IMG/VR virus record: IMGVR_UViG_3300045988_115760
Direction: 5' to 3' (one strand)
Length of the DNA: 61,108 bases
Origin: a virus
Each line of letters starts with the position of its first letter. Position 1 is the stretch's first letter. The position numbers were made by a program, and so were the translations under genes. The notes beneath the pieces were generated by a model that saw only the letters and a program-made list of their open reading frames with translations, was not told the DNA's origin and ran no database searches. Shown here in pieces: positions 3,954 through 60,950 of the stretch.

Positions 3954-4349
3954 CTAAGCCTGTGGTTTTCTCGGGGCTATCGGCGCGTCCTGTATGTCCT
4001 GATTGACTTGGGTGCCGTGCCCGTTGCCACCAAGCGCGTGGTAGGTGGCGTAGACGCCTTCGGCGCGGGTTTTGAGGTCGTTGTCGGCGATACCGCCAGC
4101 GTCGACCATCTCACGCTGCATCTGCTCCAATTTGCACAGGAGCATGGTTTTTACCCCATCCTGCAGTGGGTCGAGACGCTGGTCGAGCTGGGTCAGGCTC
4201 GCGTCCACCTGATCGAGCCTTTTCGACAGGGCCGGGTCCGGTTTGCCCGCTTGGTCGATGCGGCGCAGTACCCATCCGGCGACCGTGCCGCCGCACGTGG
4301 TGATCACGGAGACCAGGATCGTTGCCCATACGGGTATCGTCTCGGTCAT
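3954..4349 (-). CDS. Membrane-anchored coiled-coil protein (possible second holin or lysis regulator)
   Basis: N-terminal TM segment IPVWATILVSVITTCGGTVAGWVL; lies immediately upstream of the endolysin. Confidence 0.55.
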   Translation of the reverse strand: MTETIPVWATILVSVITTCGGTVAGWVLRRIDQAGKPDPALSKRLDQVDASLTQLDQRLDPLQDGVKTMLLCKLEQMQREMVDAGGIADNDLKTRAEGVYATYHALGGNGHGTQVNQDIQDAPIAPRKPQA

Positions 4350-4375
4350 CTAGGTCATGGCCTTCTTTCCTTTCG

Positions 4376-4843
4376 TCAGTTGATGTTCAGGGGCATGGTC
4401 GAGCCGGTGAAGAACGATTCGTCGCTGCCGGCCTCGGTGCAGATGATCTGATAGAACGCGGTGTCCTTGCCGGTCCGGCCTCGGAAGATGAGGCGCACGA
4501 CACCGTCGGAGGGCACGGTTAAGCCGACGCGCAGGCGTTTGTTGTTGGCCCAGTTCTCGGACCGGCCCAATGTGGCGGATCGGGAGTCCTGGGCCTCCAT
4601 GAGGGGGCCTCGGAACGTGTCCGTGGCCTCGGCGGCGCCGCAGGACGCGACGAACGCGCACCTCACGCCCGCCGGCAGGCCGGAGACCACCCATTCGGCG
4701 TAGCTGCCGATGCGGTCGGACGAATGCCGCAGGATGATGCCCGGACGGTCCGGAGAACCCCACTGGTTGACGCTGCAGTCGAGACTCCTCGTGGGTTTCG
4801 GATCGCCCAGCATGGGGTTCGGGAACCAGTTATGTCGCATCAT
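4376..4843 (-). CDS. Tail-associated small protein, paralog 3 (155 aa)
   Basis: Ends FFTGSTMPLNIN; shares its size and C-terminal F-x-G-x-x-MPL motif with the two upstream genes. Confidence 0.65.
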   Translation of the reverse strand: MMRHNWFPNPMLGDPKPTRSLDCSVNQWGSPDRPGIILRHSSDRIGSYAEWVVSGLPAGVRCAFVASCGAAEATDTFRGPLMEAQDSRSATLGRSENWANNKRLRVGLTVPSDGVVRLIFRGRTGKDTAFYQIICTEAGSDESFFTGSTMPLNIN

Positions 4844-28377: not shown

Positions 28378-28462
28378 CGGAGAGAGTGGGAGTCGAACCC
28401 ACACGCCCGTAAGGGCAGACTGTTTTCGGAACAGTTGCCGCCGCCAATCGGCTGGCCTCTCC
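28378..28462 (-). tRNA. tRNA-Ser (anticodon CGA), class II, with non-canonical C8 and C33
   Basis: Acceptor ggagagg/tctctcc, anticodon arm actgt-tcCGAaa-acagt, variable arm gccc-ttac-gggc, T arm gtggg-ttcgact-cccac. Confidence 0.6.
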
Positions 28463-28593: not shown

Positions 28594-28671
28594 TGGCGGC
28601 AGGGAGAATCGAACTCCCATTGCCAAAGGCAGTCGGGTTACAGCCGACGCGCACTCCACGTGCCTACCGCC
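28594..28671 (-). tRNA. tRNA-Tyr (anticodon GTA) with 13-nt variable region and an unusually short D arm
   Basis: Acceptor ggcggta/tgccgcc, anticodon arm gtcgg-ctGTAac-ccgac, T arm gggag-ttcgatt-ctccc. Confidence 0.7.
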
Positions 28672-29006
28672 AGACCCCGATTGTGGCGCGACCCGTAGGT
28701 CATCCACCCCCAGCCCCTACGTAGCAGACCAGATCGGGAAAACAAAGGCCGCTTCATAGAAACGACCCAGGAAACTCCTTCTACGACATGTAGATGAGCT
28801 AAGAATTGCGAGGTGGTGGATTGCGTTTTACCACCAACGCCGAGCATGTGATGCACTAACCGTGTACCGCTGTAGCGTTCCTCGTCACACTTCCCCCGCT
28901 AAAGGGTGCCGCTAAGCCGTGACGCAGCCTTAACCCGGCATACATGCAATCCGGGTTTATTCAGCCAACCTCATAAAGCACCAAGGGAGCGACCCTCGAT
29001 ACTTCG

Positions 29007-53598: not shown

Positions 53599-53772
53599 CA
53601 GTCGGCGTCCTCCATGTTGAGTAGTCCCATACGGTCGAATGGGGTGAGTTCCATGATTGTTTCCCTCCACTGGGCTTGATTATTTGGTTGTCCTTCTACG
53701 CCGGTGCTGACACGTCCGAAACCCTTGTTTTGCTGGTTTCGACGCAGGACGCGAAGGGGTTAAATTTTCTGA

Positions 53773-53860
53773 GCGCCAAGCCGGGAGTCGAACCCGGTGC
53801 ACCTTGGAGAAGTCCATGACCATTGGAAGGCTTCGTAGGTGCGGCACCATGCGCTTGGCT
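53773..53860 (-). ncRNA. Aberrant tRNA-like element C (possible degenerate class-II tRNA; candidate anticodon GGT)
   Basis: Perfect T arm ccggg-ttcgact-cccgg; acceptor agccaag/cttggcg with an A-G mismatch at 1-72; 4-bp anticodon-like stem tcca-atGGTca-tgga; D region irregular. Confidence 0.4.
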
Positions 53861-53907
53861 GCCACCGGACGAGGAAGTAAAGGAATAAAGAACCCCGCCC
53901 GGAAGAA

Positions 53908-54807
53908 TCATTTGGGTTGGATGAGGGTGTTGGAGCCCTCGGGTGTGACGATCAGCTGGTCGGCATTCTGCAGGGCGTCGATGTAATGCTGCCGGAGCAC
54001 GTTGTCGGTCAGGGAATCGTTCAGCACCTTGTTGGCGTCGGCCTCGCCCTGCGCCTTGATACGTTTGGTCTCGGCCTTGGTCTTCTCGACCTCCTGCTCG
54101 TTCAACGCCTTCTGCTTGTCGATCTCGGCGGCCTGCGCCTCCGCGTACTTCGAGGTGATGGACTTCGGGTAGCGGACCTCCTGCACCGACACCTGTTCGA
54201 CGCGCAATCCCATGTCCTTCCATTTCGCGGTCAGGGTCTTCTGAATGGCGGCGGTGTACTTGCTGCGGTCGGTCAACAATTGGATGGTGTCGAACCTGCC
54301 GGAGACCTCGCGTGGCACGCTGCGCACGTCCACCGCCGCCACCGATTTCACGAACGTGGTCTGCTTGCCGTAGTCCTTGTACAGGTCCATCGCGTACTTC
54401 GGGTCGAGCGAATAGTTGACCTGGATGTCGATGTCCGCCTGCGCGCCGTTCTTGTCGTTGACGGTGACCTGCGGGCCCCGTGCGGAGCCGCCGTCGTAGT
54501 CCTCCTTGCCCTTGGCCACGTAGCTGATGACGTTGTTGCGGGTGTCGTATTTCACGGTGGACTGCCACGGGAGCTTGCCGTGGAAGCCCGCGTCGGCGGA
54601 ATAGCCGGCGATGGAGCCTCCCATGTTCTTCAACACGACGACCTCGCCCGCATCCTGCGAATACAGGCATGCGGGAATCATCAGCAGACCCGCCACGACG
54701 ATGAAGATAAGGCCGTCGCCCATGCCGTCGCCACCGTTGGCGAGTGCGACGACTATCATGCCGACTCCGATGAGCAGGAGTATTACGGCGAGTATGAACC
54801 AGATCAT
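53908..54807 (-). CDS. SPFH/Band-7 (prohibitin/HflK-like) membrane protein (299 aa; start at MIWFIL)
   Basis: N-terminal TM segments, then an SPFH-type core (VVVLKNMGG...QVNYSLDP...VEQVSVQEVRYP) and a coiled-coil Ala/Glu/Lys tail. Confidence 0.82.
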   Translation of the reverse strand: MIWFILAVILLLIGVGMIVVALANGGDGMGDGLIFIVVAGLLMIPACLYSQDAGEVVVLKNMGGSIAGYSADAGFHGKLPWQSTVKYDTRNNVISYVAKGKEDYDGGSARGPQVTVNDKNGAQADIDIQVNYSLDPKYAMDLYKDYGKQTTFVKSVAAVDVRSVPREVSGRFDTIQLLTDRSKYTAAIQKTLTAKWKDMGLRVEQVSVQEVRYPKSITSKYAEAQAAEIDKQKALNEQEVEKTKAETKRIKAQGEADANKVLNDSLTDNVLRQHYIDALQNADQLIVTPEGSNTLIQPK

Positions 54808-55034
54808 TTTTGTGTTCCTTTCGACAATGCGAACGAGAGCATGACGGGCGAACAGCACATGAAGCCTGCGAGAATGCTCCACGGGCCCGCATAGGGTTGC
54901 AGTGAGAGAATCAGGAACCCGGTCGCCGCCAACGTCAGACAAGTGATTGTCTTCGTGTTCTCATGCCGGTGCCGGCGTTCATCAGGTGAATGCTGCCAGC
55001 CGGAGCAGTGAGCCCCATACGTTTTCCTGTTCAT
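54804..55034 (-). CDS. Small two-TM membrane protein (76 aa) translationally coupled to the SPFH gene
   Basis: ITCLTLAATGFLILSL and WSILAGFMCCSPVMLSFAL; ATGA overlap with the SPFH start. Confidence 0.5.
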   Translation of the reverse strand: MNRKTYGAHCSGWQHSPDERRHRHENTKTITCLTLAATGFLILSLQPYAGPWSILAGFMCCSPVMLSFALSKGTQK

Positions 55035-55051
55035 GACATGTCCTTTCCGCG

Positions 55052-55195
55052 TGGCCGGACTCGGATTCGAACCGAGAACGCCCTTGCCGCCACTGTGCTG
55101 CAATGTTGACCAACTGTGAGAGATGGAGATGACGAGTCCTCTGGTTTTTCCCGGTGGTGGCGGTGCGTGTCCAGACACCCCGAAGGGTTCCGGCC
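55052..55195 (-). ncRNA. tRNA-like element D: 7-bp acceptor-type stem and a perfect T arm enclosing an insert of about 113 nt
   Basis: ggccgga...(insert)...ctcgg-ttcgaat-ccgag-tccggcc-a. Insert has an accc-ttcg-gggt hairpin and the long-range complement ccgccac/gtggcgg. Confidence 0.4.
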
Positions 55196-55283
55196 GATGG
55201 TTGCCGCAGTAGATCGCAGTATGGTATTTATTTGCCTGTAGTCGATAGGTGGATAAAAAAACGACCCACTGCGGCAAGACTTG

Positions 55284-55499
55284 TTATTCCTCGTTCATCT
55301 CGTCGGCGCGATCAGCCAACTCCTCCAAGGCGCCGGCGATGAAACGAGCCTGACTCGGGGTGAGGGGACGGTTACCGTAATCGGTGCTGATTTTCGCGTC
55401 GATTAGACCTTTGTCGGTGACGTTGCCGGTGAAGTATTCGCGGGTGCGACGCTCCTCGACAACGAGCTTCTGGGAGAGATTACGATTCTGATTGCACAT
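55284..55499 (-). CDS. Hypothetical protein (71 aa)
   Basis: Intact ORF; acidic C-terminus. Confidence 0.5.
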   Translation of the reverse strand: MCNQNRNLSQKLVVEERRTREYFTGNVTDKGLIDAKISTDYGNRPLTPSQARFIAGALEELADRADEMNEE

Positions 55500-55602
55500 T
55501 GTTTTCTCGATTCATGAAAGGAGGTGAATATGGGGTATTGGAGTAGGCCCGTGCTGGTCGGCCGTCGCGAATGGCGGTTGGTCAACGTGAGCGGAAAGCC
55601 GC

Positions 55603-55794: not shown

Positions 55795-56111
55795 TATCCG
55801 GTACGTTCCTGAACGCCCCCGGTTTGAACCATGTCCAACCAGTCCAGCAGTCGCTGGTTGTCGAGGAACCGTACACAGCCGAAGGTGGCATACGCCGCGT
55901 TCCCGTGGTCCAGGTCGATAACCAGCGGCACGTCTTGGCTGGAAGCCAGTATCGACGGGTCGATGTTTAGGAGTTTCCCAATCGCGGTTGCATTGGATAG
56001 GCCGTCCCCGGTGATTTCCAATGTTTCGACGGTTCCGTCTTCAATCAGCGTTTTCAGCCCGTGAATGATCAGGGGAGGGGAAGGGCCGTTGAGGTCAAGC
56101 TGCATCTTCAT
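55791..56111 (-). CDS. Hypothetical protein (106 aa)
   Basis: ATGA overlap with the cro-like gene. Confidence 0.5.
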   Translation of the reverse strand: MKMQLDLNGPSPPLIIHGLKTLIEDGTVETLEITGDGLSNATAIGKLLNIDPSILASSQDVPLVIDLDHGNAAYATFGCVRFLDNQRLLDWLDMVQTGGVQERTGY

Positions 56112-56377
56112 GCCGTTACCTCCAAATCAGGAGACTCGATCTTGAAGAACCGCTCCTGCATGTCCATTGGGATGGTGAGCAGTTCCTCGAAGCTGATCCC
56201 GAGGATTTCTGTTATTCGGTCAATCTCGATGACGTTGAAGGCCGGGGTTCCCTTGAGTCGGCGGGATAGCTTGCTCACGTCCCAGTCGAGTTTCGATGCC
56301 ATCCACCTAAGGCTTTTGTTCCTGATGAAGAGCTGGTATCGAAGTCCGGCTGCTGTAAGTTTCTGTGTGCTGCTCAT
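56108..56377 (-). CDS. Cro-like XRE-family HTH regulator (89 aa)
   Basis: Divergent from the CI-like gene; HTH segment LRWMASKLDWDVSKLSRRLKG. Confidence 0.68.
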   Translation of the reverse strand: MSSTQKLTAAGLRYQLFIRNKSLRWMASKLDWDVSKLSRRLKGTPAFNVIEIDRITEILGISFEELLTIPMDMQERFFKIESPDLEVTA

Positions 56378-56386
56378 ATTTTATAA

Positions 56387-56440
56387 CTTAGCATATGCCA
56401 AGTTTCTGTCAAGACTAGACACGCCGTATCGCATATGCTA
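56387..56440. promoter_or_regulatory. Genetic-switch operators: 11-bp inverted copies ttagcatatgc (56387..56397) and gcatatgctaa (56430..56440), each containing the palindrome gcatatgc
   Basis: Read directly in the 73-bp divergent intergenic region. Confidence 0.65.
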
Positions 56441-56450
56441 AGATTCAACT

Positions 56451-56846
56451 ATGGCTAATCCAAAGGATTTCCGTGAAATGTCAGATTTTGCCTTAGCGTT
56501 TGCGGAAGAATATAAGAAGTATATGAAGGCGCACAAGGTGCGTCAGCGCGCTATTGCTGATTACCTTGGTCTCACCGAAGCTTACGTCTCTGAACGAGTC
56601 AACGGTAAAAGAGCGTTGGATACAAACGATATTGACGCACTGGCTGTACTCTCGGACACTACAGGCCGTTCCCTGATGATCGAATTGGCACGTTTGGCCA
56701 GAGAGACGCTGCACGGTCAGTCGGAGACCGCTTCTGTCGCCTCCCAGCTTGAAAAGGTCATGGGCAGGGAGATCGAGGTCGAGAAAGCGGCCTACAGGGA
56801 TGAGAACAAAAAAGCGGAGTCTGGTCGCGGTGAAGACTTGGACTGA
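56451..56846 (+). CDS. CI-like XRE-family repressor (ImmR-type), 131 aa
   Basis: HTH segment QRAIADYLGLTEAYVSERVNGKR; followed by an ImmA-type protease gene. Confidence 0.78.
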   Translation: MANPKDFREMSDFALAFAEEYKKYMKAHKVRQRAIADYLGLTEAYVSERVNGKRALDTNDIDALAVLSDTTGRSLMIELARLARETLHGQSETASVASQLEKVMGREIEVEKAAYRDENKKAESGRGEDLD

Positions 56847-59558: not shown

Positions 59559-60950
59559 TCACGCCTTCCATTCGATCTGCTTCAGACCGAGCTCGTCGCC
59601 TATCGTCTCCATGCCTCGCATCAAATCCTCTACCGGCACGGTGCGGTAATGCTCGCTCATTTCCACGGACGAATGGCCAACGATGCGTTGGATGATGCCG
59701 GGATCAACCTTCATGTGGAACAGGAGCGATACGACGGAATTGCGGCATTCATGCCCGTACCGGTTCTCGTAGTCGGGGATGCCCGCCCTGCGCATGAGGT
59801 CGCGGAAACCGGCCCTGTCATCCAACGCGGCCAACGGCATACCCTCGCGCGTCCTGAATATCAGGTTGTACGGGTTCGGGATGATATTCTCCGTGGCCTC
59901 CAGATACCGGTGCACGACGGTGCCCAACTGGGGGATTATCGGCACGACCTTGCCTCTCGCGGACTTCGGCGGCGTCAAAGCGTACCCCTTGCACAGGTGT
60001 ATCATGTCGTATCCGTCCGGCACCCTCCACCGGTATCGGGGGCAGCTCGAAGGCCGTTTGAAGCCGCACGGGTATCTTCCGTCCCTGCCGGGCTCCCCGC
60101 ACCCATGCTCCTTGTCGAGGCTTTCCAGTTTCCAGTTCACCGTGTAGGTGCCTATCCATATCTCGCCGCTGTCCGGGGTTTCCAACGTCTCGTCCCGCCA
60201 CAGGTCGAGATCGTCCAACGTGGCTCCCAGTATCTCCCCCTGCCTCATGCCGGTGAGCAGACGCCACCATTGGCGTGCCCCCAGAAACAGGTCGTCGGAG
60301 GACGCGTCGAGCATGTCCTGCATCTGCTCCACGGTGAACGCCTTGCGGTCCTGCGTGCCGCTGCGCCTGTCCGCCGACACGGCCACGGGCCCGTTGATGG
60401 TGCGCCGGTCCCCGGCCAATCCCGTGTCCCTGCGTTTCGGCCTTGCCGCGCTGGTGACCGGACTGGTGGGTATCAGCCGGTCGGCCACCGCCGCCTTGAA
60501 TATCTGGTTAAGGATGTTGTAGAAGCCAAGCTGCCGGTTGTACGAGCATGGGGTGCCGTCGAGGTTGCGCATGTTGGCTATCATGCGCTGCACCGCCGAG
60601 GCGGTCACTTCGCCCAGCTTCTCGTTCGCGTACTTGCACAGGTGCACGCTTATGAGGCTCGCGTAGTTGTTGATGGACTTGGGTTTCAGGTCGCGTCGTT
60701 TCAGCTCGAACCATCGTTCCGCGTACTCGCCGAGCCGGGTGGCGCGGTCTACGCCCATGCCCCATTCGGTTTTCTCCTTGAGGGCTTCGGCTATTTTCCT
60801 GTCGCATTCCTTGTAGGTCTTGGCGGACACCCATCGGCCGTCCACCTTGGCCTGCCAGTTCACGTATGTCTTTACCGTGCCGTCCTTGAGTGTTTTCCGC
60901 TGCTCGTGGCGGATGGGGTAGACCGCTCCGGTTTTCCTTATCCTAGGCAT
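59559..60950 (-). CDS. int: Tyrosine integrase (463 aa)
   Basis: C-terminal catalytic pattern HECRNS...IVGHSSVEMSEHY; lies adjacent to the repeat-rich att-like region. Confidence 0.9.
   Translation of the reverse strand: MPRIRKTGAVYPIRHEQRKTLKDGTVKTYVNWQAKVDGRWVSAKTYKECDRKIAEALKEKTEWGMGVDRATRLGEYAERWFELKRRDLKPKSINNYASLISVHLCKYANEKLGEVTASAVQRMIANMRNLDGTPCSYNRQLGFYNILNQIFKAAVADRLIPTSPVTSAARPKRRDTGLAGDRRTINGPVAVSADRRSGTQDRKAFTVEQMQDMLDASSDDLFLGARQWWRLLTGMRQGEILGATLDDLDLWRDETLETPDSGEIWIGTYTVNWKLESLDKEHGCGEPGRDGRYPCGFKRPSSCPRYRWRVPDGYDMIHLCKGYALTPPKSARGKVVPIIPQLGTVVHRYLEATENIIPNPYNLIFRTREGMPLAALDDRAGFRDLMRRAGIPDYENRYGHECRNSVVSLLFHMKVDPGIIQRIVGHSSVEMSEHYRTVPVEDLMRGMETIGDELGLKQIEWKA

What the first reader, a model, noticed from the sequence alone, without database searches (positions are those of the whole stretch)
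53773..55277. SPFH/Band-7 membrane-protein moron bracketed by two aberrant tRNA-like RNAs
A two-gene cassette sits between the lysogeny-control genes and the recombination module: a 76-aa two-TM protein (54804..55034) ATGA-coupled to a 299-aa SPFH/prohibitin-like protein (53908..54807). It is flanked on both sides by tRNA-like structures on the same strand. Upstream element D (55052..55195) has a perfect T arm (ctcgg-TTCGAAT-ccgag) and a perfect 7-bp acceptor stem (ggccgga/tccggcc). The two acceptor strands are about 130 nt apart. The insert contains an accc-UUCG-gggt hairpin (55177..55188) and a 7-nt long-range complement (55157..55163 with 55087..55093). D is itself preceded by a 10-bp stem (55268..55277 pairing with 55201..55210) that encloses a U7 run. 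Downstream element C (53773..53860) has a perfect T arm (ccggg-TTCGACT-cccgg) and a near-perfect acceptor, but an irregular D region and only a 4-bp anticodon-like stem (loop atGGTca). The topology of D, with tRNA-like ends enclosing an insert, is reminiscent of tmRNA; however it is far too short and has no tag ORF. SPFH proteins (HflK/C) are known to modulate FtsH and the lambda lysis-lysogeny decision. A prophage-borne copy delimited by tRNA-like RNAs could be a separately processed or stabilised lysogenic-conversion or exclusion transcript.
Basis: partly seen in the sequence, partly recalled or inferred. Interest (0 to 1): 0.7.

Follow-up and report, generated by a model that had tools for sequence, protein, structure and literature searches.

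The report
Conserved tRNA-like RNAs flanking phage membrane-protein gene
Two conserved RNA structures that copy the upper half of a tRNA but cannot decode codons sit on either side of a small membrane-protein gene in the early operon of a Bifidobacterium prophage, probably as cutting and stabilising signals for host tRNA-processing enzymes, and no such RNA family has been catalogued.

Summary
Elements D (55195..55052, minus strand) and C (53859..53774) are real. ARAGORN and Rfam call neither a tRNA or tmRNA, and neither matches any Rfam family.

Relatives from IMG/VR and other assemblies show both are conserved structured RNAs. For D, 97.4% of helix cells pair, against 20-43% in slid controls, and 10 of 22 pairs carry compensatory double changes. 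For C the figure is 97.2%.

What is conserved:
- Acceptor stem, T arm (UUCRANY loop, G53-C61) and a GG-containing linker.
- A covarying hairpin (P0) ending 4-6 nt upstream of each element.

What is not conserved: the anticodon arm is replaced by a long, variable arm, and C's terminal loop is 3-7 nt. These are therefore not decoding tRNAs.

The SPFH gene is optional. Many relatives have D, the small ORF and C without it. The constant partner is the small two-TM ORF. A second phage lineage places a third tRNA-like RNA after the same ORF family, with an invariant G3·U70 and A73.

Best reading (about 45%): each P0 plus tRNA-like module is a punctuation signal. Host RNase P, RNase Z and the CCA-adding enzyme would cut there, leaving defined, hairpin-protected mRNA ends, much like plant mitochondrial t-elements or mascRNA. 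No cleavage or expression has been shown. The FtsH and lysogeny ideas are untested.

The parts
55201..55277 (-). P0 leader domain of D. Outer stem is TTGCCGCAGT (55277..55268) with ACTGCGGCAA (55210..55201). Inner helix is GGUCG (55266..55262) with CGAUC (55216..55212). The loop holds the U7 run and the conserved motif GACUACAGGCAAAUAAAUAC.
   Evidence: Sequence. In subtypes D2 and D3 the stem is TTGCCGTG/CACGGCAA. Four of 10 pairs show changes on both sides and 95% of cells pair. Inner helix is GGUCG/CGAUC in the window versus CGGUCG/CGACCG in D2 (read).
55196..55200 (-). 5-nt spacer CCAUC between P0 and the first acceptor base. This is the predicted RNase P leader.
   Evidence: Invariant in all three D subtypes among the representatives aligned; one locus, L089, has CCAUU.
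55052..55195 (-). tRNA-like RNA D. Parts in order: 7-bp acceptor (55195..55189 with 55059..55053); D-like hairpin ACCC-UUCG-GGGU (55188..55177); linker with UCUGGA; long P2 arm with basal helix 55163..55157 pairing 55093..55087; a variable C/U-rich distal part; T arm 55076..55060; discriminator A 55052. No CCA is encoded.
   Evidence: Not called by ARAGORN or Rfam. Acceptor 99% and T stem 100% paired, with 2 and 4 pairs changed on both sides across D1, D2 and D3. Same topology in the MFE folds of D1, D2 and D3. P2 compensatory variants are CGCCACC/GGUGGCG, CGUCACC/GGUGACG and AACCGUCA/UGACGGUU.
55041..55048 (-). Shine-Dalgarno GGAAAGGA of the small ORF. It starts 3 nt after D's discriminator in the window and 1 nt after it in D2 and D3.
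54804..55034 (-). Small ORF of 76 aa with two hydrophobic segments (family MNxKxYGxHxSGx). It is the constant gene partner of the tRNA-like elements.
   Evidence: Present in every locus carrying D and C. No Pfam, PHROG or PADLOC family.
53908..54807 (-). SPFH/Band-7 membrane protein of 299 aa, ATGA-coupled to the small ORF. It is an optional, exchangeable insert.
   Evidence: Pfam Band_7 at 5.8e-25; PHROG 200 at 2.9e-44. Absent from the short-form loci. Allele mosaicism shown.
53865..53902 (-). P0' leader stem of C. CCGGGCGGGG (53902..53893) pairs with CCUCGUCCGG (53874..53865), including two G·U pairs. It encloses an 18-nt U/C-rich loop and starts 5 nt after the SPFH stop codon.
   Evidence: Variants are CCGGCCGGGG/CCCCGGCCGG and CCGGGCGG/CCGCCCGG. 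94-96% of cells pair, with changes on both sides.
53860..53864 (-). Spacer UGGCA (4-5 nt in relatives) between P0' and C.
53774..53859 (-). tRNA-like RNA C. Parts in order: 6-bp acceptor (53859..53854 with 53780..53775); unpaired J1 CGCAUGGUGCC with no D stem; a long arm made of P2a GCACCU/AGGUGC, P2b GAAG/CUUC and P2c UCCA/UGGA, with loop 53823..53817; T arm 53797..53781; discriminator G 53774. No CCA is encoded.
   Evidence: The only Rfam similarity is tRNA-Sec at 18.4 bits, E 2.1. Acceptor 98%, P2b 97%, P2c 95-98% and T stem 98-100% paired, with compensatory changes. The terminal loop is 3-7 nt long in relatives. P2a is complementary in every variant but individually weak.

Best explanation
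D and C are each the second half of a two-part cis-acting RNA module. The first half is a stable hairpin (P0). After a 4-6-nt single-stranded spacer comes an RNA that reproduces the top half of a tRNA: acceptor stem coaxial with a 5-bp T stem, a T loop, and a GG linker that could form the elbow.

The modules are transcribed as part of the long early (cro-side) transcript of a temperate Bifidobacterium phage. I propose that host tRNA-maturation enzymes recognise them. RNase P would cut at the first acceptor base. The upstream mRNA would then end in the P0 hairpin plus a 4-5-nt tail, too short for 3' exonucleases to engage. Because no CCA is encoded, RNase Z (or an equivalent enzyme) would cut after the discriminator.

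This would excise the mRNA of the small two-TM ORF (with or without SPFH) from the operon with defined ends. Its stability and translation would then be uncoupled from the neighbouring early genes, and two stable tRNA-like by-products would be released.

Shown: the structures, their conservation and covariation, their strand, their fixed position at gene boundaries, and that they cannot decode. Inferred: co-transcription, the identity of the enzymes, the cleavage sites and the stabilising effect.
For: 1. Only the enzyme-recognition half of a tRNA is conserved. Acceptor, T stem (G53-C61 invariant) and the UUCRANY loop are kept across D1, D2 and D3, across nine C variants, and in the sister type E. 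The anticodon-arm equivalent is rewritten, carries indels, and ends in loops of 3-7 nt.

2. Covariation. D: 97.4% of cells pair against 20-43% in slid controls, 10 of 22 pairs changed on both sides, 0 of 500 shuffles as high. C: 97.2% against 33-53%. E: 97.8% against 31-45%.

3. G·U pairs are frequent. They would be A·C on the other strand, so the structure belongs to the coding-strand RNA.

4. Every element is preceded by a covarying hairpin that ends 4-6 nt before base 1: D, C, E and L065 element 2. For this helix to form in RNA, transcription must start upstream of it, which favours read-through from the upstream gene over a promoter inside the P0 loop.

5. The consensus scans found no promoter- or terminator-like sites beyond the number expected by chance in or around the cassette.

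6. Positions are exactly intergenic. D ends 1-3 nt before the SD of the small ORF, and P0' starts 5 nt after the stop codon.

7. Neither element encodes CCA, and neither do the phage's four ARAGORN-called tRNA genes in the cluster. This fits a shared RNase Z and CCA-adding route.

8. There is precedent. Plant mitochondrial t-elements with a conserved GGTTCRANYCC arm mark mRNA 5' and 3' ends through RNase P and Z cleavage (PMC1920247).
Against: - No transcript-end or expression data exist, so no cleavage step is demonstrated.
- C has an 11-bp rather than 12-bp acceptor/T stack. A hairpin only 4-5 nt upstream could hinder rather than help RNase P.
- RNase Z cleavage after D would leave the SD only 1-3 nt from the 5' end, which might impair rather than promote translation.
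- Single-sequence folding energies are not unusual for the window copies (z about -0.5).
- The promoter scan uses an E. coli-type consensus and could miss Bifidobacterium promoters inside the P0 loops.
- Why this one small ORF, among many early genes, should need punctuation is unexplained.
- The invariant G3·U70 and A73 of type E suggest that at least some of these RNAs do more than serve as cutting sites.
Confidence: 0.45

Rival explanations
1. D and C are genes for stable tRNA-like small RNAs that act in trans, and processing is only their maturation. After CCA addition they could be aminoacylated, or bind tRNA-binding factors (EF-Tu, the ribosome, tRNA-modifying or tRNA-cleaving enzymes, T-box leaders). 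They might act as decoys or regulators during infection or lysogeny.
For: - The elements are well-folded, self-contained cloverleaf-like RNAs with perfect 7/5 geometry in D.
- Sister type E keeps G3·U70 and A73, the anticodon-independent alanine identity set shared with tmRNA, in 8 of 8 variants while position 5 of the same stem covaries.
- L065 element 1 encodes ACCA at its 3' end.
- D2 and D3 display a CUCC loop on a covarying hairpin, and D1 has a conserved C/U-rich stretch.
Against: - The parts that would carry a trans-acting specificity (distal arm, loops) are the least conserved and differ completely between D1, D2/D3, C and E.
- I found no significant complementarity of D, C or their leaders to the neighbouring translation-initiation regions.
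- No promoter of their own was detected, and the covarying P0 helix points to read-through transcription.
- D and C lack G3·U70.
- An anticodon-nuclease decoy would need a conserved anticodon loop, which is absent.
Confidence: 0.25
2. The modules are cis-regulatory 5'-UTR and 3'-UTR structures of the small two-TM ORF that work without cleavage. A 5' tRNA-like fold abutting the SD could control ribosome access or protect the 5' end. A 3' tRNA-like end could protect the mRNA or be charged, like the 3' tRNA-like structures of plant RNA viruses. Alternatively they modulate termination or antitermination in the early operon.
For: - D's 3' end is 1-3 nt from the SD in all subtypes.
- The tRNA-like elements always accompany the small ORF, in two phage lineages with different gene order.
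- The location in the early operon corresponds to where lambdoid phages keep nut/put-type RNA signals (established knowledge; resemblance only).
Against: - No alternative (switching) pairings involving the SD were found.
- No terminator lies downstream of D or C in the window for them to regulate.
- The specifically tRNA-like features (T loop, G53-C61, acceptor/T stacking) are unnecessary for a simple protective hairpin.
Confidence: 0.15
3. D and C are decaying relics of phage tRNA genes, or conserved DNA linker sequences where modules are exchanged by recombination. They have no function as RNA.
For: - The region is mosaic. The SPFH allele is exchanged and SPFH is present or absent between otherwise near-identical flanks.
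- A few copies carry disruptive changes: L087 deletions, T-stem mismatches in L112 and L146, and U55C in several T loops.
- The same phage carries a tRNA cluster with non-canonical members.
Against: - Relics or DNA linkers would not accumulate compensatory double substitutions that preserve five to six helices in three families.
- The recombination joints for SPFH lie at its start and stop codons, not inside the elements.
- The unit is retained in all relatives down to 60% identity of the neighbouring 71-aa protein.
Confidence: 0.07
4. D and C are functional decoding tRNAs that carry intron-like insertions removed by splicing.
For: - Cloverleaf-like topology.
- An unrelated jumbo-phage contig, fetched by chance, has tRNA-like genes with insertions in its tRNA array (L204).
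Against: - ARAGORN makes no call. The only Rfam similarity is a tRNA-Sec hit for C at 18.4 bits (gathering score 47), and D has none.
- No conserved 7-nt anticodon loop exists. Loop length varies from 3 to 7 nt in C and the arm is rewritten in D.
- The inserts (45-70 nt) are far too short for bacterial group I tRNA introns, and bulge-helix-bulge splicing is archaeal and eukaryotic (established knowledge).
Confidence: 0.03

Closest known systems
Plant mitochondrial t-elements (tRNA-like processing signals; Hanic-Joyce 1990; Forner et al. 2007, PMC1920247)
   Same: Both are non-canonical cloverleaves with a well-conserved T arm (GGTTCRANYCC) and an acceptor stem. Both are embedded in polycistronic transcripts directly 5' or 3' of protein-coding genes, cannot decode, and lack encoded CCA. 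Stable excised element RNAs are possible in both.
   Different: t-elements are organellar and are experimentally tied to mapped mRNA ends. The elements here are in a bacteriophage, are larger (86-144 nt with a hypertrophied arm), and are always coupled to an upstream hairpin. No ends have been mapped. There is no sequence homology.
MALAT1/MEN-beta 3'-end module (stabilising structure followed by tRNA-like mascRNA, cleaved by RNase P and RNase Z)
   Same: The two-part logic is the same: a protective RNA structure, then a few nucleotides, then a tRNA-like element whose RNase P cleavage would create the mature 3' end of the upstream RNA.
   Different: That module is eukaryotic and nuclear, and its upstream structure is a U·A-U triple helix. 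Here the upstream structure is a plain 10-15-bp hairpin with a U/C-rich loop. This comparison rests on my own knowledge and was not tested.
tmRNA tRNA-like domain
   Same: In both, the acceptor and T arm are formed by the two ends of the RNA, a long helix (P2) replaces the anticodon stem, and the D region is reduced. Type E in the sister lineage even has G3·U70 and A73.
   Different: The elements here have no tag reading frame and no pseudoknot ring, and are 86-144 nt against more than 250 nt. D and C have C3-G70. ARAGORN and the Rfam tmRNA models are silent.
Bacterial Y RNA-like YrlA (tRNA-mimicking module; PMC4201824)
   Same: Both are bacterial or phage non-coding RNAs that mimic the T arm, D arm and acceptor of a tRNA.
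   Different: In YrlA the RNA ends form a Ro60-binding helix and the tRNA-like part is internal, and the genes lie next to rsr. Here the ends form the acceptor itself, no rsr or rtcB is nearby, and there is no Rfam hit.
C4 antisense RNA of phages P1 and P7 (RNase P-processed regulator cut from the transcript it controls)
   Same: Both are phage-encoded RNAs lying in cis, upstream of the genes concerned, and matured by a tRNA-processing enzyme.
   Different: C4 acts by base pairing with downstream target sites that overlap an RBS. I found no significant complementarity here and no Rfam C4 match.
SPFH/Band-7 proteins of phages (PHROG 200) and HflK/C
   Same: The 299-aa protein has the Band_7 domain, N-terminal hydrophobic segments and a charged C-terminal helix.
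   Different: There is no evidence for an FtsH link, there is no NfeD partner, and the gene is dispensable for the RNA-flanked unit.

Membership tests
Canonical tRNA (Rfam RF00005 / ARAGORN) | Detected by tRNA covariance model or ARAGORN above threshold | tested here: not met
   ARAGORN calls only four tRNAs, at 28-29 kb. Rfam gathering finds three tRNAs, none here. The E-value scan of 53600-55500 gives nothing for D and only tRNA-Sec at 18.4 bits (gathering score 47) for C.
Canonical tRNA (Rfam RF00005 / ARAGORN) | 5-bp anticodon stem with a conserved 7-nt loop (U33, anticodon, purine 37) | tested here: not met
   C's terminal loop is AUGGUCA, AUGGCCA, AUGUCA, UUCA, AUUGC or GUUUU in relatives. 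In D a 45-70-nt branched insert sits on the P2 helix and differs between D1, D2 and D3.
Canonical tRNA (Rfam RF00005 / ARAGORN) | 7-bp acceptor stacked on a 5-bp T stem with a T loop UUCRANY and G53-C61 | tested here: met
   D is 7+5 with a UUCGAAU loop. C is 6+5 with a UUCGACU loop. Covariation supports both helices.
tmRNA | Tag-peptide reading frame with a resume codon and stop between the acceptor strands | tested here: not met
   I read no stop-terminated frame in D's insert. ARAGORN reports no tmRNA.
tmRNA | G3·U70 and A73 alanine identity | tested here: not met
   D is C3-G70 with A73. C is C3-G70 with G73. The feature is met only by the related type E in other phages.
tmRNA | Match to tmRNA covariance models | tested here: not met
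   No hit at E up to 10 or in related loci.
t-element / mascRNA-type tRNA-like processing signal (functional class, not a homologous family) | Non-decoding tRNA-like fold with conserved acceptor and T arm, embedded in a longer transcript at a gene boundary | tested here: met
   Co-transcription is inferred from the covarying upstream P0 helix and from promoter- and terminator-like sites being no more frequent than chance.
t-element / mascRNA-type tRNA-like processing signal (functional class, not a homologous family) | RNA ends generated by RNase P and RNase Z at the element boundaries | not testable with these tools
   Needs transcript-end mapping or in vitro cleavage. No transcriptome data were available.
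YrlA / bacterial Y RNA | Ro60-binding terminal helix, neighbouring rsr gene, match to Rfam model | tested here: not met
   No Rfam hit. The RNA ends form the acceptor stem. Neighbouring genes are the 71-aa ORF, the two-TM ORF and SPFH.
SPFH / Band-7 protein family (Pfam PF01145) | Band_7 domain above the Pfam gathering score | tested here: met
   88.8 bits against a cut-off of 23.6, residues 52-241; PHROG 200 at 2.9e-44.
Known anti-phage defence systems (PADLOC) | Match of cassette proteins to a defence-system model | tested here: not met
   No PADLOC family matches SPFH, the small ORF or the flanking small proteins.

The most novel reading that the evidence does not exclude
Temperate Bifidobacterium phages carry a previously unrecognised class of chargeable tRNA-like RNAs fused to the operon of a small membrane protein. 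After excision and CCA addition these RNAs would be aminoacylated (type E by AlaRS through its invariant G3·U70 and A73). They would then act on the translation or tRNA-surveillance machinery, for example as EF-Tu or ribosome ligands, or as sensors or decoys. Alternatively they would remain as aminoacylatable 3' tRNA-like ends of the cassette mRNA. That would be the first bacterial or DNA-phage counterpart of the 3' tRNA-like structures of plant RNA viruses.
Probability: 0.15. Interest if true: 0.9.

Novelty: new variant of a known kind. Interest (0 to 1): 0.68.

Why it matters
If these modules are cut by RNase P and RNase Z, a DNA phage would be using tRNA punctuation. That mRNA-maturation strategy is known from mitochondria and a few eukaryotic nuclear and herpesviral RNAs. 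Here it would carve one gene's mRNA out of an early operon and cap the fragments with protective hairpins.

It would add a new way for phages to set gene-specific expression without promoters or terminators. It would also add a new class of natural non-tRNA substrates for bacterial tRNA-processing enzymes.

Independently of mechanism, the work defines three related, covariation-supported RNA families (D, C, E). They are absent from Rfam and common in human-gut Bifidobacterium prophages. One of them carries the alanine identity pair.

It also re-centres attention on an unstudied small two-TM protein family, not on SPFH, as the gene these RNAs accompany.

Tried and rejected
- **Ordinary tRNA, pseudogene or tmRNA.** Rejected. 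ARAGORN and Rfam give nothing at gathering or permissive thresholds.
- **Antisense or anti-SD action.** I tested whether D, C or their C/U-rich loops pair with the translation-initiation regions of the small ORF, SPFH, or the upstream and downstream genes. RNAduplex energies were no better than shuffles, so I dropped it. C/U-rich loops recur, but CUCC is not universal.
- **P0 stems as intrinsic terminators, or U7 as a terminator tail.** No hairpin immediately precedes the U runs and no U tract follows the stems. The scanners find nothing on the minus strand.
- **Promoters inside the P0 loops.** No σ70-like match. The covarying P0 helix argues for read-through transcription. This is not fully excluded for Bifidobacterium promoters.
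- **attP, attB or integration relic.** D and C are not repeats of each other. The known bifidoprophage att cores for dnaJ2 and tmRNA are absent from the window.
It is not conserved in relatives. The alternative long-range helix P2a fits every variant, but each case is statistically weak, and CM re-alignment did not fix its register. I report P2a as tentative.
- **Searches that found nothing.** Phage GenBank records by DNA. GTDB species genomes by the small-ORF peptide pattern and by the D leader motif. Seven literature searches for any prior description, plus a term search within the one relevant paper.
- **A DnaA-box-like TTATCCACC in the P0 loop.** Judged chance: about a dozen such near-matches are expected in 61 kb. 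Not pursued.


Full report
**1. Observation**

All genes in this part of the window run on the minus strand.

- D has a perfect 7-bp acceptor stem (55195..55189 with 55059..55053) and a perfect T arm CUCGG-UUCGAAU-CCGAG (55076..55060). Its discriminator is A (55052) and no CCA is encoded.
- D also has the cUUCGg hairpin (55188..55177) and the 7-nt long-range complement (55163..55157 with 55093..55087).
- Upstream of D is a 10-bp stem (55277..55268 with 55210..55201) around a U7 run.
- C has a perfect T arm (53797..53781), a 6-bp acceptor (53859..53854 with 53780..53775) and discriminator G (53774). Its small hairpin has the loop AUGGUCA (53823..53817).
- The 76-aa ORF (55034..54804) and the 299-aa ORF (54807..53908) overlap in ATGA. 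The latter is a Band_7/SPFH protein (Pfam 5.8e-25; PHROG 200).
- The surroundings are as described. A divergent HTH pair lies at 56108-56846, an integrase at 59559-60950, and a PDDEXK nuclease, ERF and an SSB-like gene lie downstream.

C is also preceded by a 10-bp stem (53902..53893 with 53874..53865), which encloses an 18-nt U/C-rich loop and starts 5 nt after the SPFH stop codon.

**2. Not tRNA, tmRNA or any catalogued RNA**

ARAGORN finds four tRNAs at 28-29 kb and nothing here. Rfam at gathering thresholds finds three tRNAs only. A permissive scan of 53600-55500 gives no hit for D and only a tRNA-Sec similarity for C (18.4 bits, E 2.1).

Single-sequence folding recovers the acceptor and T arms. 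The energies are not unusual for the composition (z -0.47 and -0.50). On the window alone the case would therefore be open.

**3. Relatives settle the question**

The SPFH protein and DNA patterns from D and C retrieved about 170 related loci from IMG/VR, and further ones through protein look-ups.

- *Host.* Homologues of the neighbouring 71-aa protein are named Bifidobacterium longum and B. breve by NCBI, on contigs up to 1 Mb. The terminase's best match is an unannotated "Bacteriophage sp." record from human faeces (53% identity), and its remaining matches (below 40% identity) are actinobacteriophages. So this is a temperate Bifidobacterium phage.
- *Two architectures.* One is D, small ORF, SPFH, C (about 1.5 kb). 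The other is D, small ORF, C (about 0.6 kb), lacking exactly the SPFH gene.
- *SPFH mosaicism.* The window's SPFH allele is 95% identical to SPFH genes of another phage lineage that has neither D nor C. It is only 73% identical to the SPFH of most D/C loci, although those loci have identical C and a near-identical small ORF. SPFH is therefore an optional, exchangeable insert.
- *The constant unit.* It is the 71-aa gene, P0 plus D, the small two-TM ORF, and P0' plus C. It is kept even where the 71-aa protein has diverged to 60-64% identity.

**4. Structure and covariation of D**

Three subtypes exist: D1 (window type, about 40 sequence variants), D2 and D3. They share the leader, the spacer CCAUC (CCAUU in one locus, L089) and the first four acceptor bases. 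The rest is rewritten in a strictly compensatory way.

| Helix | D1 | D2 | D3 |
|---|---|---|---|
| Acceptor | GGCCGGA/UCCGGCC | GGCCCGU/ACGGGCC | GGCCUGU/ACAGGCC |
| T stem | CUCGG/CCGAG | GGAAG/CUUCC | GAGAG/CUCUC |
| D-like hairpin | CCC-UUCG-GGG | CCCU-UGGCGAUU-AGGG | CCCCAC-GCCGACUA-GUGGGG |
| P0 | UUGCCGCAG/CUGCGGCAA | UUGCCGUG/CACGGCAA | UUGCCGUG/CACGGCAA |

On a 14-sequence alignment, 97.4% of cells in P0, acceptor and T stem form standard pairs. The figure is 20-43% when partners are slid by 1-3 columns. Ten of 22 pairs show changes on both sides, and no shuffle in 500 reaches the observed covariation.

It also covaries: CCGCCAC/GUGGCGG, CGUCACC/GGUGACG, CGCCGCC/GGUGGCG, and AACCGUCA/UGACGGUU in D2 and D3. 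The distal part of that arm differs by 2-, 5- and 8-nt indels within D1 and is unrelated in D2 and D3, where a covarying hairpin presents a CUCC loop.

MFE folds of D1, D2, D3 and of two further elements from a more distant phage (L065) all give the same topology. It runs acceptor, D-like hairpin, roughly 9-nt linker with a conserved YGGA, long branched arm, T arm.

**5. Structure and covariation of C**

Nine sequence types were found.

- Acceptor: GCCAAG/CUUGGC versus GCCGGU/ACCGGC, three pairs changed on both sides.
- T stem: CCGGG/CCCGG, GCGGG/CCCGC, GCGAG/CUCGC.
- Arm helices: GAAG/CUUC versus UGCAG/CUGCA, and UCCA/UGGA with G·U variants.
- P0' stem: CCGGGCGGGG/CCUCGUCCGG, CCGGCCGGGG/CCCCGGCCGG, CCGGGCGG/CCGCCCGG.

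All covary. 97.2% of cells pair against 33-53% in slid controls. In 27 loci re-aligned with a covariance model built on the family, these helices pair at 94-99%.

The terminal loop is 7, 6, 5, 4 or 3 nt long in different variants, so it is not an anticodon loop.

There is no conserved D stem. Its 3' neighbour can pair with the segment just before the T arm (P2a) in every variant, using different sequences. Each case is individually weak, and the register was not recovered by the model. I treat P2a as tentative.

**6. Strand and transcription**

G·U pairs are common in these helices. Examples are two in the window's P0' and several in P2c and P0. They would be A·C on the opposite strand, so the folded molecule is the coding-strand RNA.

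The P0 helices start right after the upstream stop codons and covary. For them to form in RNA, transcription must begin upstream of them, which favours read-through from the upstream gene. Promoter- and terminator-like matches across 49-57.5 kb are no more frequent than in shuffled sequence. None lies next to D or C, and the only minus-strand ones fall inside coding sequence at about 52.9 and 53.26 kb. SPFH is only slightly more G+C-rich than its neighbours.

**7. A wider family tied to the small ORF**

The other lineage, which supplied the window's SPFH allele, has the order SPFH, then the small two-TM ORF, with extra genes between them in some loci. The small proteins of the two lineages are homologous: M1, N2, Y6, G7, H9, S11 and G12 are invariant at the N-terminus, and three further residues elsewhere.

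Directly after that small ORF comes a hairpin with a C/U-rich loop, a 4-6-nt spacer and a third tRNA-like RNA, type E. Its linker, GCAGGUU(C)GCC, resembles C's GCAYGGUGGCC, and the C-family model hits it weakly (21 bits, E 8e-4).

Type E also covaries. 97.8% of cells pair against 31-45%, and 7 of 17 pairs change on both sides. Its acceptor keeps G3·U70 in 8 of 8 variants while position 5 flips G-C to C-G. Its discriminator is A. This is the anticodon-independent alanine identity set, known from tRNA-Ala and tmRNA (established knowledge).

A more distant phage (L065, SPFH 65% identical) has two tandem tRNA-like elements after SPFH. One encodes ACCA, and they are followed by a canonical terminator. 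No Rfam family matches any of these.

The link is therefore between tRNA-like modules and the small-ORF/SPFH cassette, above all the small ORF. It is not with SPFH as such.

**8. How it most likely works**

What selection preserves is exactly the part of a tRNA read by RNase P, RNase Z and the CCA-adding enzyme. That part is the acceptor/T-stem stack, the T loop with G53-C61, and a GG that can close the elbow. The decoding half is free to vary.

The elements sit precisely at gene boundaries. D ends 1-3 nt before the SD GGAAAGGA, and P0' begins 5 nt after the stop codon. Each is preceded, at a fixed 4-6 nt, by a stable hairpin. Neither the elements nor the phage's four ARAGORN-called tRNA genes encode CCA.

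The simplest reading is tRNA punctuation.

- RNase P cleavage at base 1 would give the upstream mRNA a 3' end made of a hairpin plus a short tail. That would resist 3' exonucleases (inference from established properties of those enzymes).
- RNase Z cleavage after the discriminator would create the 5' end of the next mRNA.
- The small-ORF (with or without SPFH) message would thus be cut out of the early operon and given its own stability.

Plant mitochondrial t-elements do this, and so does the MALAT1-mascRNA module (my own knowledge).

I put this at about 0.45. None of the enzymatic steps is shown. The 11-bp stack of C, the closeness of P0 to the cleavage site, and the SD lying almost at the predicted 5' end are all points where it could fail.

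**9. Rivals**

- Stable tRNA-like small RNAs with a function of their own, 0.25. This is compatible with processing. It is favoured by type E's alanine identity and L065's encoded CCA. It is disfavoured by the non-conservation of every loop that could carry specificity and by the lack of target complementarity.
- Uncleaved cis-regulatory UTR structures, 0.15.
- Relics or recombination linkers, 0.07. This is contradicted by the compensatory changes.
- Intron-bearing decoding tRNAs, 0.03.

**10. Novelty**

tRNA mimicry and tRNA-like processing signals are known kinds. A conserved hairpin-plus-tRNA-like module inside a DNA-phage operon is not in Rfam. It was not found in the literature I could search, including the main bifidoprophage genomics paper. 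I classify it as a new variant of a known kind.

No defence-system model matches the proteins.

Noticed in passing
L004/L005 about 4266-4403; L008/L010 about 4180-4330; also L001, L006, L007, L014-L016, L063 (IMG/VR loci of a second Bifidobacterium phage lineage): A third tRNA-like RNA, type E, follows the homologous small two-TM ORF. It is preceded by a hairpin with a C/U-rich loop. It has G3·U70 in 8 of 8 variants while position 5 of the same stem covaries, and an A73 discriminator. This is the alanine (tRNA-Ala/tmRNA) identity set. It has no Rfam match.
   Followed up: partly
L065 3416-3527 and 3645-3776: Two tandem tRNA-like elements with long C/U-rich arms lie directly after a 65%-identical SPFH gene. 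The first encodes ACCA at its 3' end. The second is preceded by an 8-bp leader stem and followed by a canonical bidirectional terminator.
   Followed up: partly
window 28379-28462 (-): An 84-nt tRNA-like gene sits inside the phage tRNA cluster. It has a GGAGAGG acceptor, a long variable arm and discriminator G (tRNA-Ser-like, loop UCCGAAA). ARAGORN and the Rfam tRNA model do not call it; tRNA-Sec scores 35 bits, E 7.6e-5. It is probably a non-canonical type II tRNA.
   Followed up: no
window 28805-28983 (-): A full-length match to the Rfam manA RNA motif (48.3 bits, E 5.6e-11, below the gathering score of 55.2) lies between tRNA genes of the phage tRNA cluster.
   Followed up: no
window 28594-28671 (-): ARAGORN calls a tRNA-Tyr(GTA) that reaches only 31.2 bits with the Rfam tRNA model. 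It is just above gathering, and was listed only in the local scan, not in the whole-window gathering scan.
   Followed up: no
window 53653-53772 (-): The ~120-nt spacer between C and the next gene is almost as conserved as C across relatives. It contains a direct repeat GCGUC-CU-GCGUC and a conserved CGUCC...GGACG stem. Its function is unknown.
   Followed up: no
window 53908-54807 versus loci L001-L020 and L021-L060: The window's SPFH allele is 92-97% identical to SPFH of a lineage with a different gene order and no D or C. It is only 73% identical to SPFH in most loci that share the window's flanks. The exchange joints lie exactly at the start and stop codons.
   Followed up: partly
L204 21-150, 3005-3107, 4388-4547 (233-kb IMG/VR contig fetched by a chance pattern match): An unrelated jumbo-phage contig has several tRNA-like genes with large insertions. 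One is a tRNA with a ~32-nt insertion in the D loop. ARAGORN does not call them.
   Followed up: no
window 55284-55499 (-): A 71-aa protein (NRNLSQKLVVEERRTREYFTG motif) with no Pfam, PHROG or PADLOC family is invariably encoded immediately upstream of the P0+D module in all relatives.
   Followed up: partly
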